Origin: Escherichia coli | GTDB lineage: Bacteria > Pseudomonadota > Gammaproteobacteria > Enterobacterales > Enterobacteriaceae | NCBI RefSeq assembly: GCF_024223415.1 | Contig: NZ_CP100500.1 | Strand: one strand, 5' to 3' | DNA length: 64,000 bases | Part shown: positions 25,203 through 32,540 of the stretch, piece after piece | How positions within the stretch are numbered: position 1 is the first letter of the stretch | How the letters are laid out: each line of letters opens with the position of its first letter | Notes under the pieces: generated by a model | Databases searched by the model: none | What the model was told of the DNA's origin: nothing | The model's input: the letters and a program-made list of their open reading frames with translations, nothing else | Translations under genes and position numbers: made by a program

Positions 25203-25240
25203 AAAACCCCCGAACTGGTAAGGAACGGGGGTTTTACTTT
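25203..25240. terminator. acpS terminator hairpin (probably also terminates the antisense sRNA OhsC)
   Basis: 10-bp stem aaaacccccg/cgggggtttt with 13-nt loop; T tracts on both strands. Confidence 0.7.
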
Positions 25241-25290
25241 GTAACTTTAATTTAGTGCAGCACGCACCCTCAACAACAGCGATTATGGAT
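25205..25290 (-). ncRNA. ohsC: OhsC-like antitoxin sRNA of the shoB/ohsC type I TA locus (boundaries approximate)
   Basis: A 24-nt segment at 25254..25277 is, on the minus strand, complementary to 25502..25525 in the shoB 5' leader; the two mismatches both become G.U wobble pairs. Placement matches remembered literature that OhsC is divergent from shoB with short complementarity. Ends not determined. Confidence 0.5.
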
Positions 25291-25596
25291 CAGGGTAGTT
25301 ATCTTTTACAAGCAACTTGCAATCTTTATCATAAAAACTCGAGCCTTTACGAAGAAAGCGATATTGATGGCAAGATTAACGTGACCGCCAATTCGTAAGT
25401 ACATTAAAATTGGTTTCGTTATTGGCGATTTTGCTGTGCTTTACACCATGCCACAGAATTCCCCCATTGAAACGAGTGGTGTCGTCAAAGCTCTGGTGTG
25501 GAGTGCAGCATGCACCCTCAATAACTCGCACGTTCAGTTTTGGGGAGATGTAAGGGCTAATCTGAACGGCTGCATTCCTTGTTTAAGGAAAAACGA

Positions 25597-25677
25597 ATGA
25601 CTGATTGCCGATACCTTATTAAACGGGCCATTAAAATCATCATTGCTGTTTTACAGCTGATCCTTCTGTTCTTATAA
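25597..25677 (+). CDS. shoB: type I toxin ShoB (26-aa hydrophobic peptide)
   Basis: Short ORF not in the six-frame track: ATG 25597, translation MTDCRYLIKRAIKIIIAVLQLILLFL, stop 25675..25677. Matches remembered ShoB and its K-12 position between acpS and yfhL. Confidence 0.85.
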   Translation: MTDCRYLIKRAIKIIIAVLQLILLFL

Positions 25678-25871
25678 CACAAGGAAACGTACTTAAGGTG
25701 CGTCCGGTGAACCAGTCGAACGCACCTTTAATAACTATAAATAAGTGTCTGGGCAGATACTATATAAATTAACTTAGTGAATGTTTGTGCTAATAATCAT
25801 CAATTAAATAAATATAATAGCGTTAAGGTTTCCCTATAAAATAATTAATACTCTACTTCAGGAGCAGAATA

Positions 25872-26132
25872 TTAAATTTTATCCGCGTGGTGCATCAGCA
25901 CAAATTTATCCCACAACTGTTCTTCTGTCTCGACATGTTGCGGATCTTTCACAATAGTATTAGGGATCGGACACACCTTCTGGCAGGTTGGCGTCTCGTA
26001 GTGACCTACGCATTCGGTACACTTATCGCTGTTAATCTCGTAGATATGTTCACCCATTGAAATAGCCTCATTTGGGCATTCAGGTTCACACATATCACAA
26101 TTAATACAGCGTTTAGTAATTAGTAAAGACAT
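25872..26132 (-). CDS. yfhL: 4Fe-4S ferredoxin-type protein
   Basis: 86 aa; two CxxCxxCxxxCP motifs. Confidence 0.93.
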
Positions 26133-26340
26133 TTCAATGAATTACCGTTAAATCATTTTAAAATCAGTAAGTTGTATCGAGTTTGTATGCTTTACTGTCA
26201 TTAACTTACTGTATGTTGATCCAGTGTATTTAACCTTGATAAACTCAGTCCAGCAACACAAAACCGCAACACATTGCATTTTGTCCCGTAGAAAAGACTT
26301 GTATGTGTGAGCTTGTTTTCTGCGCCTACGCAGATAAGGA

Positions 26341-30918: not shown

Positions 30919-31188
30919 TCACAATATCCCCTCCAGATTTTTGCTATCCAGCACCACCACGGTAAAGCCCAGTTTTCGCAGACGTTCATGTTCGCGCAAC
31001 TGGTCAGGTCGTGGTGGTTTGCCTGGCGCTTTGCATTCGACAAAGACGATGCGACCGCCGGGTAGCAGGACAATGCGATCCGGTACCGAGCGGCGACCGG
31101 GAGATACGAACTTAAAGGCCACACCGCCAGCTTTTTTCACTTCAGCGACGAGGTGCTTTTCGATAAGGCTTTCACGTTCACAGGCCAT
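30919..31188 (-). CDS. VRR-NUC domain nuclease
   Basis: 89 aa; HLVAEVKKAGG...RIVLLPGGRIVFVECKAPGKPPRPDQ...KLGFTVVVLD matches the VRR-NUC PD-(D/E)xK pattern. Confidence 0.65.
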   Translation of the reverse strand: MACERESLIEKHLVAEVKKAGGVAFKFVSPGRRSVPDRIVLLPGGRIVFVECKAPGKPPRPDQLREHERLRKLGFTVVVLDSKNLEGIL

Positions 31189-31399
31189 CGTCTGCCACCT
31201 TACGTTTTTCGCGTATGTTCTGCATCAGGCAAAAATCAGATCTGCGCTCACTCCATTCCTGATTGAGCGCGTTACGTGACTGGCGGTTGGCTTTGGCCCA
31301 GACCTTTGCTGCCCGATCGTACGCGCCGGACTGCTCAAGGCACAAAGCCTCCCGTGCAGTCTGGTAATAAAGTGGACTGTCCCGGTATTTAAATGACAT
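31178..31399 (-). CDS. hypothetical small phage protein (73 aa)
   Basis: ORF in operon context; overlaps VRR-NUC gene start. Confidence 0.4.
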   Translation of the reverse strand: MSFKYRDSPLYYQTAREALCLEQSGAYDRAAKVWAKANRQSRNALNQEWSERRSDFCLMQNIREKRKVADDGL

Positions 31400-31410
31400 A
31401 TATTTCGATT

Positions 31411-31898
31411 CCTGTAAAAAGCCCCTGACAGTGCAGGGGCGGGATTGATTTGAATTAACGAGGTAAGGCTGGTGGAATGTATTTGCCGATGCGGTCTTCT
31501 ATCGTTGGCAGAATACACATGCTGTCGTTAAAGCGATCGTGCAGTTTGTAGACCAGTTTCGAATCAGCCATTTCAAGCGCTGGCATTAACTGAGTCTGCC
31601 AGATTTCGTTGATGCGCCGGAAGTTATGACAGATCGCACGAAGATTATTAATGAACATTTCCTTCTCTGCGTCAGTGACTTCTGTTTGTGTTTTCTGAAT
31701 ACGCTTTGTGCTGCCGTTCCGGTAAAAGCGTTCCTGCGCAGCGACAGCCTCATCCACAGTCGGATAACAGCCAACGTATACGTTTTTCTCGCCGTCCCAT
31801 GCATAAGCCCGGTACGGATTGTATTTGCTCCGGTGATGGTAAATCATCTTCGGCAGACATTCCCTGTGCGGCGCCAGTATCGTGGAGGACTGCGGAAC
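31411..31898. repeat. ~490-bp direct repeat, copy A (3' part of BRO-N gene + its terminator)
   Basis: Near-identical to 35504..35990 at DNA and protein level (C-terminal 147 aa plus downstream hairpin gcccctgacagtgcaggggc). Confidence 0.85.
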
Positions 31899-32231
31899 GG
31901 CGGTATCTTTCTCGATAAGGTCAAGCACCCAGCGACGAAATTCTTTGGCTACCGGAGTCGTTGCGAATATTGCTACCAGGTGGGCACCGCGCAGGGAGAA
32001 AACTCGCACATCTTTTTCACGTAAGCTATTGTTTATTCCGTTGAACCTCATTTTGAGGTTGATTGACATACCCGGGGTAAACTCATCTGCGTTGCGGTTG
32101 TATATCTGGGTGATTTTATCGCCGCGCGAATACCCCAGCGCAGTAGCCAGCGTTGCGGCGGTGAACCACTGCCTGCCGTTGTGTTCGGTAGTTTCGAGAA
32201 CGTGAGATTTGAATACGAGTTGGGTACTCAT
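31455..32231 (-). CDS. BRO-N domain antirepressor-like protein with C-terminal AP2-like DNA-binding module
   Basis: ORF 31455..32393; probable start at Met55 (MSTQLVFKSHVLETTEHNGRQWFTAATLATALGY..., BRO-N-like). C-terminal ~147 aa (YRAYAWDGEKNVYVGCYPTVDEAVAAQERF, AP2-like) is nearly identical to the C-terminus of ORF 35547..36311. Confidence 0.65.
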   Translation of the reverse strand: MSTQLVFKSHVLETTEHNGRQWFTAATLATALGYSRGDKITQIYNRNADEFTPGMSINLKMRFNGINNSLREKDVRVFSLRGAHLVAIFATTPVAKEFRRWVLDLIEKDTAVPQSSTILAPHRECLPKMIYHHRSKYNPYRAYAWDGEKNVYVGCYPTVDEAVAAQERFYRNGSTKRIQKTQTEVTDAEKEMFINNLRAICHNFRRINEIWQTQLMPALEMADSKLVYKLHDRFNDSMCILPTIEDRIGKYIPPALPR

Positions 32232-32498
32232 AGTTTTATGTCCTTTGCAATATTTTGAATTCACCCCTTTTGAGAGGGCGGTCAGGCGCTCAAAACCGTG
32301 CAAAGTCGGCGGGCGTATTTCCCTTACGGGTATTGTATTAGCCTCACGCCCGACCATTGAATTCTCAATATCGTGGACATAAAAAATCCGCATGTCTGTC
32401 GGGTGCGGTTTCCGCTTTGCAAGGTGTTTTGAGCACCATGACGCGGAATATAGCCCCGTTAACGCGACATTGTCAAACTGAAGAATTTTACGGATAGC

Positions 32499-32540
32499 AA
32501 AAACCCCCGAACTGGTGAGGAACAGGGGTTTTTACTTTAC
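32499..32540. terminator. hairpin terminator downstream of the TIR-like gene; ~40-nt near-identical copy of the host acpS terminator
   Basis: aaaacccccgaactggtgaggaacaggggtttt versus 25203..25235 aaaacccccgaactggtaaggaacgggggtttt; stem and loop both conserved. Confidence 0.6.

What the first reader, a model, noticed from the sequence alone, without database searches (positions are those of the whole stretch)
25203..32533. Host acpS terminator hairpin has a near-identical ~40-nt copy inside the prophage (TIR-like gene terminator)
25203..25235 (aaaacccccgaactggtaaggaacgggggtttt) and 32500..32532 (aaaacccccgaactggtgaggaacaggggtttt) share stem and loop sequence. Loop conservation implies common descent rather than convergent terminators. 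It may be a small dispersed element, or the TIR-like cassette was assembled with host-derived sequence. Only two copies are visible here.
Basis: seen in the sequence. Interest (0 to 1): 0.3.

Follow-up and report, generated by a model that had tools for sequence, protein, structure and literature searches.

The report
Prophage copy of OhsC antitoxin sRNA
The "acpS terminator" is the 3' end of the known OhsC antitoxin small-RNA gene, and its prophage twin is a diverged, toxin-less relative of that gene that now also ends a phage TIR defence-candidate gene; it is a modest new family member, not a new kind of element.

Summary
Sites 25203-25235 and 32500-32532 are 31/33 identical, there are no other copies in the window, and shuffles give none.

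The two sites do share descent, but they are not a dispersed repeat or recently captured host DNA. The host hairpin is the intrinsic terminator of ohsC (Rfam RF02495, 25198-25274, minus strand, 103 bits). OhsC is the antitoxin sRNA of the ShoB/OhsC type I toxin-antitoxin locus, and the terminator is shared back-to-back with acpS.

The prophage copy aligns full-length to the same model (32494-32569, minus strand, 44.5 bits, just under the cut-off of 50). It keeps a -10 box and folds well only on the minus strand, but its 5' pairing region is different.

Related phages carry complete ohsC-like/shoB-like modules, each with matching sRNA and target sequences. The window's prophage has no toxin gene. 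The TIR gene (PADLOC PDC-S35) ends 8 nt from the sRNA's putative -35 box. The hairpin therefore ends the TIR transcript and sits just upstream of a strong antirepressor-operon promoter. Eight other assemblies carry this junction unchanged.

Whether the orphan sRNA is active is untested.

The parts
24796..25176 (+). acpS (holo-ACP synthase). Its stop codon lies 27 nt upstream of the host hairpin.
   Evidence: ORF; Pfam ACPS, E 7e-23; annotated as acpS in homologous E. coli loci.
25198..25274 (-). ohsC, the antitoxin sRNA gene of the ShoB/OhsC type I toxin-antitoxin locus. It contains the host hairpin.
   Evidence: Rfam RF02495 ohsC_RNA, 103.1 bits (cut-off 50), model positions 1-77 of 77.
25203..25235 (.). 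Host hairpin, the first site of the finding. It is the intrinsic terminator of ohsC and is shared back-to-back with acpS.
   Evidence: Sequence. It folds equally well on both strands (-29.7 and -29.6 kcal/mol, z about -4). There are A/T runs on both sides.
25282..25311 (-). ohsC promoter, TTGTAA-18-CATAAT.
   Evidence: Promoter scan. The hexamers are the ones given for ohsC in Shore et al. 2024, Table 2 (PMC11264685).
25254..25277 (-). The 5' pairing region of OhsC, seen as one arm of a direct DNA repeat.
   Evidence: Direct repeat D4, 22/24 identical to 25502-25525. Duplex with the shoB 5' UTR is -42 kcal/mol.
25502..25525 (+). OhsC target site in the shoB 5' UTR.
   Evidence: The literature reports 19 nt of complementarity between the OhsC 5' end and the shoB 5' UTR (PMC3919570).
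25381..25410 (+). shoB promoter, GTGACC-18-TAAAAT.
   Evidence: matches Shore et al. 2024, Table 2.
25597..25677 (+). shoB toxin ORF, encoding MTDCRYLIKRAIKIIIAVLQLILLFL.
   Evidence: Translation; annotated as shoB at the homologous position in E. coli genomes.
32494..32570 (-). Prophage ohsC-like sRNA gene with no toxin partner (an orphan). It contains the second hairpin.
   Evidence: Rfam ohsC_RNA, full-length alignment (1-77), 44.5 bits, E 7e-6 in a 301-nt search, below the cut-off of 50. The minus-strand RNA folds at -25.9 kcal/mol, z -4.15. It is homologous to ohsC-like genes of related phages.
32500..32532 (-). Prophage hairpin, the second site of the finding. It is the intrinsic terminator for the ohsC-like sRNA and for the TIR gene transcript.
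   Evidence: One stem pair is U.G on the minus-strand RNA but C.A on the plus strand; the plus strand folds poorly (-18.8 kcal/mol, z -1.17). The terminator scan finds a site on the minus strand only.
32578..32605 (-). Putative ohsC-like promoter: -35 TTGCTT (32605-32600), 16-nt spacer, -10 GATAAT (32583-32578).
   Evidence: Positions. The -10 is conserved in all family members. The -35 was altered by a 5-nt deletion relative to L011 and KY171. At 8/12 matches it is below the scan threshold, so this is an inference.
32447..32476 (-). Strong promoter-like site, TTGACA-18-TATATT, immediately downstream of the hairpin on the minus strand. It would drive the BRO-N (antirepressor-type) operon.
   Evidence: 11 of 12 matches.
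32272..32355 (-). C4-type antisense or leader RNA (Rfam sRNA-Xcc1) in the BRO-N leader.
   Evidence: Rfam RF02221, 79.8 bits.
31455..32231 (-). BRO-N domain gene, 258 aa. The mechanical ORF that runs to 32393 is over-extended.
   Evidence: Pfam Bro-N. The gene is called as 258 aa in identical loci.
32614..33357 (-). TIR-domain gene, a candidate single-gene anti-phage defence. Its 3' UTR is the ohsC-like gene.
   Evidence: Pfam CAP12-PCTIR_TIR, E 6e-31; PADLOC PDC-S35, E 9e-107, full length.
32592..32606 (.). 15-nt exact direct repeat TGTAAAGTAAGCAAT, copy 1. It overlaps the sRNA's -35 box and lies just past the TIR stop codon.
33366..33380 (.). 15-nt exact direct repeat, copy 2, just upstream of the TIR start codon.
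   Evidence: It is absent from the homologous intergenic region in KY171.

Best explanation
The two hairpins are the intrinsic terminators of two homologous genes for OhsC-family type I antitoxin small RNAs, both transcribed on the minus strand.

The host copy is the known ohsC gene. Its symmetrical hairpin ends OhsC on one strand and most likely acpS on the other.

The prophage copy is a diverged ohsC-like gene. In related temperate phages this gene sits divergently beside a shoB-like toxin gene, and its 5' pairing region matches that toxin's 5' UTR. In this prophage the toxin half is absent. The TIR gene (PDC-S35) abuts the sRNA promoter, so the hairpin now also terminates the TIR transcript. 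It also shields the strong antirepressor-operon promoter just downstream from read-through.

Shown: homology, structure, strand asymmetry, absence of a toxin or target in the window, and conservation of the junction in other assemblies. Inferred: termination itself, transcription of the sRNA (from its own weakened promoter or by processing of the TIR 3' UTR), and any remaining antitoxin activity.
For: - Host copy: Rfam ohsC_RNA at 25198-25274, minus strand, 103 bits, full length. The promoter hexamers for ohsC and shoB equal the published ones. The pairing-region/target repeat is 22/24 and the duplex is -42 kcal/mol.
- Prophage copy: full-length ohsC_RNA alignment, 44.5 bits, E 7e-6, with a conserved -10 box.
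- One stem pair changes step by step: C-G in the host, U.G in the window prophage, U-A in KY171 and L011. The intermediate state pairs only on the minus-strand RNA.
- Complete phage-borne modules exist in E. coli JNEC-KY171 and HY220605, in IMG/VR contigs L005, L014 and L016, and in metagenome contig L011. Their toxin peptides are 18/26 identical (KY171/L011 type) or similar to ShoB.
- The shoB-like region is 75-77% identical to host shoB over about 275 nt.
- Matched sRNA/target pairs give -33 to -46.5 kcal/mol. Unmatched pairs are mostly -16 to -28 kcal/mol, with the GC-rich host pairing region reaching about -32.
- The window has no second shoB-like sequence and no target for the orphan's pairing region beyond what shuffled versions of it reach.
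- Against L011 the sRNA body is 44/47 and the pairing region 27/30 identical, while the flanks are 60-70% identical.
- The TIR to ohsC-like to promoter junction is identical in all 8 assemblies sampled, with differing upstream and downstream genes.
Against: - The prophage copy scores below Rfam's curated cut-off (44.5 versus 50).
- Its -35 element is weak (3 of 6) and the promoter fails the scan threshold, so independent transcription is unproven.
- Hairpin conservation on the minus strand is equally explained by terminator duty for the TIR gene alone.
- The higher conservation of the sRNA body could reflect recent recombination rather than selection.
- The 8 identical junctions show recent spread, not long-term constraint.
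- The prophage continues beyond base 64000, so a distant toxin gene cannot be excluded.
- No expression data are available.
Confidence: 0.85

Rival explanations
1. The prophage copy descends from an ohsC-like gene but is now only a relic. It works purely as the terminator of the TIR gene and as an insulator, and no functional sRNA is made.
For: There is no toxin and no target in the window. The -35 box was altered by a 5-nt deletion and the promoter falls below the scan threshold. Losing the toxin first is the usual way these loci decay: Shore et al. 2024 report antitoxin-only shoB/ohsC and orz loci.
Against: The break in homology leaves the whole sRNA gene intact, including the -10 box and a usable -35 box, and the TIR stop codon follows 8 nt later. 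The pairing region, which a terminator does not need, is 27/30 identical to that of L011, while the flanks are 60-70% identical. Even without its own promoter, the sequence would be transcribed as the TIR 3' UTR.
Confidence: 0.4
2. The phage, or its TIR cassette, recently picked up the host's acpS/ohsC terminator, for example by imprecise excision from the nearby integration site.
For: The prophage is integrated only about 0.9 kb from host ohsC, at the 5' end of yfhL. The left arm of the hairpin is identical to the host's.
Against: Similarity to the host stops after 39 nt, whereas similarity to phage-borne homologues runs 115-132 nt at 84-86%. The loop is the phage/Orz type, CCUCACCAG. The pairing region is unrelated to the host's. 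Full phage modules are only about 75% identical to host shoB. The copy lies 6 kb inside the prophage, not at its end.
Confidence: 0.05
3. The two copies belong to a small dispersed repeat or a generic terminator family with many unrelated copies.
For: The short hairpin is nearly palindromic, so BLAST gives self-hits on both strands (noted by Shore et al. 2024).
Against: E. coli genomes that matched have a median of one place each. The degenerate pattern CTGGTRAGGAACRGGGGTTTT hit five contigs across about 100,000 species representatives. Four are Escherichia, and the fifth is a 231-nt contig labelled Terasakiella whose sequence matches E. coli ohsC and is probably a contaminant. The phage-type pattern hit 1-2 IMG/VR contigs and 1 JGI metagenome contig.
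Confidence: 0.02
4. The two copies are attachment-site-type direct repeats that bound a 7.3-kb inserted island.
For: They are direct repeats 7297 bp apart, and an integrase gene lies between them.
Against: Window 24627-26122, which includes the first copy, shoB and almost all of yfhL, is native DNA that is contiguous in a prophage-free strain, TG1. So the prophage begins at about 26123, not at the hairpin. Related prophages at the same site carry the copy at a different internal position or lack it.
Confidence: 0.01

Closest known systems
OhsC sRNA / ShoB-OhsC type I toxin-antitoxin locus of E. coli (Rfam RF02495; Fozo et al. 2008, as cited in PMC3919570)
   Same: The host copy is this gene. 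The prophage copy shares its length of about 77 nt, its two-hairpin layout, its terminator sequence (36/39), its -10 position and its strand logic. Related phages pair such an sRNA with a divergent gene for a 26-aa ShoB-like peptide and a matching site in that gene's 5' UTR.
   Different: The prophage copy scores below the family cut-off, has an unrelated 5' pairing region, has an Orz-type loop, sits on a temperate phage and has no toxin partner. [quoted passage not shown]
OrzO/OrzP antitoxin sRNAs of the zor-orz loci (Rfam RF02083)
   Same: Same divergent gene layout and 5'-end pairing (PMC3919570). The terminator loop core CCUCACCAG is identical to the prophage copy's, and the preceding AGUAGUAAA motif is also shared.
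   Different: The stem sequence differs. The Rfam score is only 17.9 bits (window copy) or 26.6 bits (KY171) against a cut-off of 60. Zor toxins form a separate 29-aa family.
Antitoxin-only (orphan) type I loci, such as the orz-only and ohsC-only strains of Shore et al. 2024
   Same: An antitoxin sRNA gene is retained after the toxin is lost.
   Different: Those are chromosomal remnants at the native locus. This one is phage-borne and fused to the 3' end of a defence-candidate gene.
Bidirectional intrinsic terminators between convergent genes
   Same: The host hairpin lies between the convergent acpS and ohsC, has A/T runs on both sides and folds equally well on both strands.
   Different: The prophage copy has become one-directional: one stem pair is U.G on one strand and C.A on the other.

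Membership tests
Rfam ohsC_RNA (RF02495) | Covariance-model score at or above the curated cut-off of 50 bits | tested here: met
   Host copy 25198-25274, minus strand: 103.1 bits, model positions 1-77 of 77.
Rfam ohsC_RNA (RF02495) | The same score criterion, applied to the prophage copy | tested here: not met
   32494-32569, minus strand: 44.5 bits, below 50. The alignment is full-length, E 7e-6 in a 301-nt search. By my own scaling this is roughly 1e-3 for the whole window. So it is a homologue, but outside the curated family boundary.
ShoB/OhsC-type type I toxin-antitoxin module | A divergently encoded small hydrophobic toxin gene next to the sRNA gene | tested here: not met
   For the prophage copy, the TIR stop codon is at 32614, 8 nt from the sRNA's -35 box. 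There is no second shoB-like sequence in the window. The feature is met for the host copy (shoB 25597-25677) and for the phage relatives KY171, L011, L014 and L016.
ShoB/OhsC-type type I toxin-antitoxin module | The sRNA's 5' end is complementary (about 19 nt) to the toxin's 5' UTR | tested here: not met
   For the prophage copy, no site in the window is within 3 mismatches of its pairing region, and the best duplex (-28 kcal/mol) lies within the range of shuffled versions (-24 to -31). Its best partner elsewhere is the L011 toxin UTR at -30.5 kcal/mol, weaker than any matched pair (-33 to -46.5). The host pair meets the feature (22/24, -42 kcal/mol).
ShoB/OhsC-type type I toxin-antitoxin module | The sRNA has its own sigma-70 promoter | tested here: inconclusive
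   Host: TTGTAA-18-CATAAT, equal to the published elements. Prophage: TTGCTT-16-GATAAT, 8 of 12 matches, below the scan threshold.
ShoB/OhsC-type type I toxin-antitoxin module | The sRNA is expressed and represses the toxin | not testable with these tools
   This needs a Northern blot or RNA-seq, plus toxin-rescue assays like those in PMC3919570.
Intrinsic (Rho-independent) terminator | A G+C-rich stem-loop followed by a U run on the transcribed strand | tested here: met
   Both copies form stems of 14-15 pairs followed by U runs on the minus-strand RNA. The scan flags the prophage site on the minus strand only. Termination itself was not measured.
Rfam OrzO-P (RF02083) | Score at or above the cut-off of 60 bits | tested here: not met
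   17.9 bits, E 1.6, 3' half only. The loop core is shared, but this copy is not a member.
Dispersed repeat element (REP or MITE type) | Many copies per genome in unrelated contexts | tested here: not met
   There are two copies in the window. E. coli genomes that matched have a median of one place each. Among species representatives the degenerate pattern hit only four Escherichia genomes and a 231-nt contig labelled Terasakiella.
Prophage attachment-site duplication | The repeats sit at the junctions between the element and host DNA | tested here: not met
   Host DNA is contiguous from 24627 to 26122. The second copy is about 6.4 kb inside the prophage.

The most novel reading that the evidence does not exclude
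ShoB/OhsC-like type I modules form a phage-borne family with several mutually exclusive sRNA/target specificities, comparable to immunity types. In this reading the orphan ohsC-like sRNA carried with the TIR cassette is an active trans-acting antitoxin. It would neutralise the ShoB-like toxin of a competing or superinfecting phage of the L011 specificity class, or it would have allowed the toxin to be swapped for the TIR gene. The chromosomal shoB-ohsC locus, which lies 0.9 kb from this phage family's integration site, could then itself have come from a phage.
Probability: 0.15. Interest if true: 0.6.

Novelty: new member of a known kind. Interest (0 to 1): 0.35.

Why it matters
The host half of the finding is textbook: it is ohsC. 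The prophage half matters in three modest ways.

1. It shows that the ShoB/OhsC family is not purely chromosomal and single-copy. Published surveys describe it that way and describe type I systems as not prone to horizontal transfer. Here, diverged members ride on at least two kinds of temperate phage: the family integrated at yfhL, and a P22-like context in L016.
2. The phage members show matched changes in sRNA and target. This offers a natural series for studying how specificity works in type I systems that pair through the sRNA's 5' end.
3. It gives a concrete example of an antitoxin sRNA gene reused as the 3' UTR and terminator of a defence-candidate gene (TIR, PDC-S35).

It also serves as an annotation warning, because the phage copies fall just under Rfam's threshold and the 26-aa toxins are not annotated.

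Tried and rejected
- **Attachment-site or island boundary.** Rejected. Host DNA is contiguous to 26122 in the prophage-free strain TG1.
- **A target for the orphan's pairing region within the window.** None was found. The exact or near-exact search found only the sRNA gene itself. The sliding duplex scan gave nothing beyond shuffled pairing regions, and nothing in the TIR gene.
- **A second shoB-like toxin in the window, or in the eight TIR-bearing loci.** None.
- **Deposited phage genomes (INPHARED).** No match to the KY171 or L016 modules.
- **Plasmids.** The only hits were four chromosomes mislabelled as plasmids, carrying host shoB.
- **NCBIfam scan of the 26-aa peptides.** No model matched, even for genuine ShoB, so this test says nothing.
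- **Fozo et al. 2008 (PMC2597788).** Not held in the library. OhsC facts were taken from PMC3919570, PMC2887945 and PMC11264685 instead.
- **Formal pair counting on 8 sequences.** It gave one compensatory pair and is not significant on its own: 43-44 of 500 shuffles reach the observed value. The argument rests on which strand tolerates the intermediate state, not on statistics.
- **L003, a lambdoid O145 prophage with a homologous antirepressor promoter region.** It has no ohsC-like hairpin.
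Full report
**Observation.** They are 31/33 identical. With one gap the match extends to 36/39 over 25203-25240 and 32500-32538. No third copy exists in the window at up to 3 mismatches, and 100 dinucleotide-preserving shuffles gave none.

**Context.** The left part of the window is the E. coli-type rnc-era-recO-pdxJ-acpS cluster, followed by shoB and yfhL. Alignment to the prophage-free strain TG1 shows host DNA running unbroken from 24627 to 26122, which is 10 nt inside the 5' end of yfhL. No yfhH homologue follows anywhere in the window. The prophage therefore starts at about 26123 and runs past base 64000. Its gene order is integrase (26341-27744), an SNF2 helicase, an Arc-like regulator, a BRO-N gene, the TIR gene, a family A DNA polymerase and AntA. 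The first hairpin is thus host DNA about 0.9 kb outside the prophage, and the second is about 6.4 kb inside it. This excludes an attachment-site duplication.

**What the host copy is.** An Rfam scan places ohsC_RNA (RF02495) at 25198-25274 on the minus strand, at 103 bits and full length. The "acpS terminator" is therefore the 3' hairpin of the OhsC antitoxin sRNA, convergent with acpS.
- The promoter scan recovers TTGTAA-18-CATAAT for ohsC and GTGACC-18-TAAAAT for shoB. These are the hexamers tabulated by Shore et al. 2024 (PMC11264685).
- The direct DNA repeat 25254-25277 / 25502-25525 (22/24) is the OhsC 5' pairing region and its site in the shoB 5' UTR. The duplex energy is -42 kcal/mol. 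This agrees with the reported 19-nt 5'-end pairing (PMC3919570).
- The shoB ORF is at 25597-25677.
- The hairpin folds equally well on both strands (-29.7 and -29.6 kcal/mol), as expected for a terminator shared by two convergent genes.

**What the prophage copy is.** With permissive thresholds, the same Rfam model aligns end to end (positions 1-77) to 32494-32569 on the minus strand. The score is 44.5 bits, E 7e-6 for the 301 nt searched, just under the cut-off of 50.
- An alignment with host ohsC genes from five Escherichia genomes and with two phage homologues shows a conserved 3' two-thirds, a conserved -10 box and a wholly different 5' 20 nt.
- One stem pair differs: C-G in the host, U.G in the window prophage, U-A in KY171 and L011. 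The U.G state is a legal pair only on the minus-strand RNA. On the plus strand it is C.A.
- Accordingly the prophage copy folds at -25.9 kcal/mol (z -4.15) on the minus strand but only -18.8 (z -1.17) on the plus strand. The structure is therefore maintained on the strand that carries the sRNA and the TIR gene.
- Formal pair counting on eight sequences is not significant on its own.

**Relatives with the toxin.** A search of 5,426 complete E. coli genomes found one longer match, in strain JNEC-KY171. This strain carries a prophage of the same family at the same yfhL site.
- Between the prophage's antA leader and its DUF2815 gene lie the hairpin, an ohsC-like gene and, divergently, a shoB-like gene. 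The shoB-like region is 75% identical to host shoB over 276 nt (E 1e-44). It encodes MADHRELLKQIIRIVIAVLQLILLFL, which is 18/26 identical to ShoB.
- The same module occurs in E. coli HY220605 and in IMG/VR contig L005.
- Further variants occur in metagenome contig L011, in IMG/VR contig L016, and in IMG/VR contig L014. L016 has a P22-like context, with the module next to a Bro-N gene and a tailspike head-binding domain.
- Each module has its own pairing region with a matching site in its toxin's UTR. Matched pairs give -33 to -46.5 kcal/mol. Unmatched pairs are mostly -16 to -28, with the GC-rich host pairing region reaching about -32.
- No deposited phage genome and no true plasmid carries such a module. 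Only 2 of 5,426 complete E. coli genomes do.

**Orphan status in the window.** Homology to L011 and KY171 runs from the antirepressor leader through the hairpin, the sRNA and its promoter, to about 32599-32606. The TIR stop codon follows at 32614.
- The window has no second shoB-like sequence.
- No site lies within 3 mismatches of the orphan's pairing region.
- No duplex exceeds what shuffled pairing regions achieve.
- The pairing region (GCGGTACGCTGATCTCAAAC on the plus strand) is closest to L011's. It pairs with the L011 toxin UTR at -30.5 kcal/mol, weaker than any matched pair.
- The promoter keeps GATAAT, but a 5-nt deletion turned the -35 TTGCAA into TTGCTT, with a 16-nt spacer. This falls below the scan threshold.
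- Against L011 the sRNA body is 44/47 and the pairing region 27/30 identical, while both flanks are 60-70% identical. This is mild evidence for constraint on the whole sRNA rather than on the hairpin alone.

**The TIR link.** The TIR protein matches Pfam CAP12-PCTIR_TIR and PADLOC candidate system PDC-S35 over its full length (E 9e-107).
- In KY171 the homologous TIR gene has a different terminator and different neighbours. The ohsC-like gene is therefore not an original part of the TIR cassette.
- The exact TIR protein is on record in 200 blocks of the assembly collection. In all eight contigs examined, the 185 nt spanning the TIR end, the ohsC-like gene and the next promoter are identical to the window. 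Meanwhile the downstream antirepressor gene (Bro-N or AntA) and the upstream genes differ. The junction therefore travels as a unit, and none of those loci holds a toxin.
- Immediately after the hairpin on the minus strand lies a near-consensus promoter, TTGACA-18-TATATT (32476-32447). It feeds a C4/sRNA-Xcc1-type leader and the BRO-N gene.

**Mechanism.** The hairpin most likely ends two minus-strand transcripts: the TIR mRNA, whose 3' UTR is then the whole ohsC-like sequence, and any sRNA started at about 32570. It also keeps read-through out of the antirepressor operon. These steps are inferred from sequence. Whether the orphan sRNA still acts as an antitoxin is open. I put "relic that serves only as a terminator" at about 0.4. 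Retention of antitoxins after toxin loss has precedent in the ohsC-only and orz-only loci of Shore et al. 2024.

**Comparison and novelty.** The host gene is already known. The prophage gene is a new, diverged member of the OhsC family, and its loop core CCUCACCAG is identical to the Rfam OrzO-P consensus. [quoted passage not shown] I found no report of phage-borne members in the held library. This is a limited search and does not prove absence.

**Caveats.** The right part of the prophage is unseen. There are no expression data. Which way the module moved between host and phage is unresolved.

Noticed in passing
window 32592-32606 and 33366-33380: An exact 15-nt direct repeat, TGTAAAGTAAGCAAT, brackets the TIR ORF. 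One copy overlaps the ohsC-like -35 box and the other lies just upstream of the TIR start codon. About 0.05 such repeats are expected by chance in 10 kb (my estimate). The repeat is absent from the homologous intergenic region in KY171. It may mark how the TIR gene was inserted.
   Followed up: partly
window 36363-36446 (C4), 36472-36545 (isrK), 32272-32355 (sRNA-Xcc1), all minus strand; L017 and L018 3918-4135: Both antirepressor-type genes (AntA and BRO-N) have C4-type antisense-RNA leaders. Between the Bro-N-type and AntA-type leaders, short motifs change together at three places (TTGCAAAG versus TGCGATAG). This looks like matched recognition elements, as in the P1/P7 c4-ant system.
   Followed up: partly
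window 26113-26140: The prophage is integrated inside the first 10 nt of yfhL. Host homology ends at 26122, and the yfhL start codon at 26132 is supplied by phage-side sequence. The right end of the prophage lies beyond base 64000.
   Followed up: partly
window 31455-32393, minus strand: The mechanical 312-aa BRO-N ORF is over-extended. Identical loci call a 258-aa product starting at the position equivalent to 32231. This puts the sRNA-Xcc1 match in the 5' leader rather than in coding sequence.
   Followed up: yes
window 25212-25226 and 32509-32523; L014; Rfam OrzO-P consensus: The loop motif (C/U)ACCAG, read on the sRNA strand, is kept in host OhsC, in all phage variants, in L014 (which has a different stem) and in the OrzO-P consensus (also a different stem). 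A plain terminator should not need a fixed loop sequence. Host shoB mRNA has CUGGUG just upstream of the OhsC target site. Whether this means anything was not tested.
   Followed up: no
L006 (E. coli E69, CP089930.1) 200-300: This genome's ohsC has a left flank that does not look like the 3' end of acpS. The record starts 278 nt before the hairpin.
   Followed up: no
L009 (contig labelled Terasakiella sp. PR1, 231 nt): A 231-nt contig assigned to a marine alphaproteobacterium matches the E. coli ohsC region. It is probably contamination in the assembly.
   Followed up: no
L001 12085-12954 versus window 34121-34131: The family A DNA polymerase gene of the VL7S7 prophage is annotated at 944 aa, against 688 aa in the window. 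Part of the difference is about 870 nt with no counterpart in the window, possibly an intein or a homing-endonuclease insertion.
   Followed up: no
window 17957-18788 (minus strand) and 21571-21785 (plus strand): Rfam matches to AsrC (antisense RNA to rseC) and to the rncO leader in the host part of the window. These are ordinary host features.
   Followed up: no
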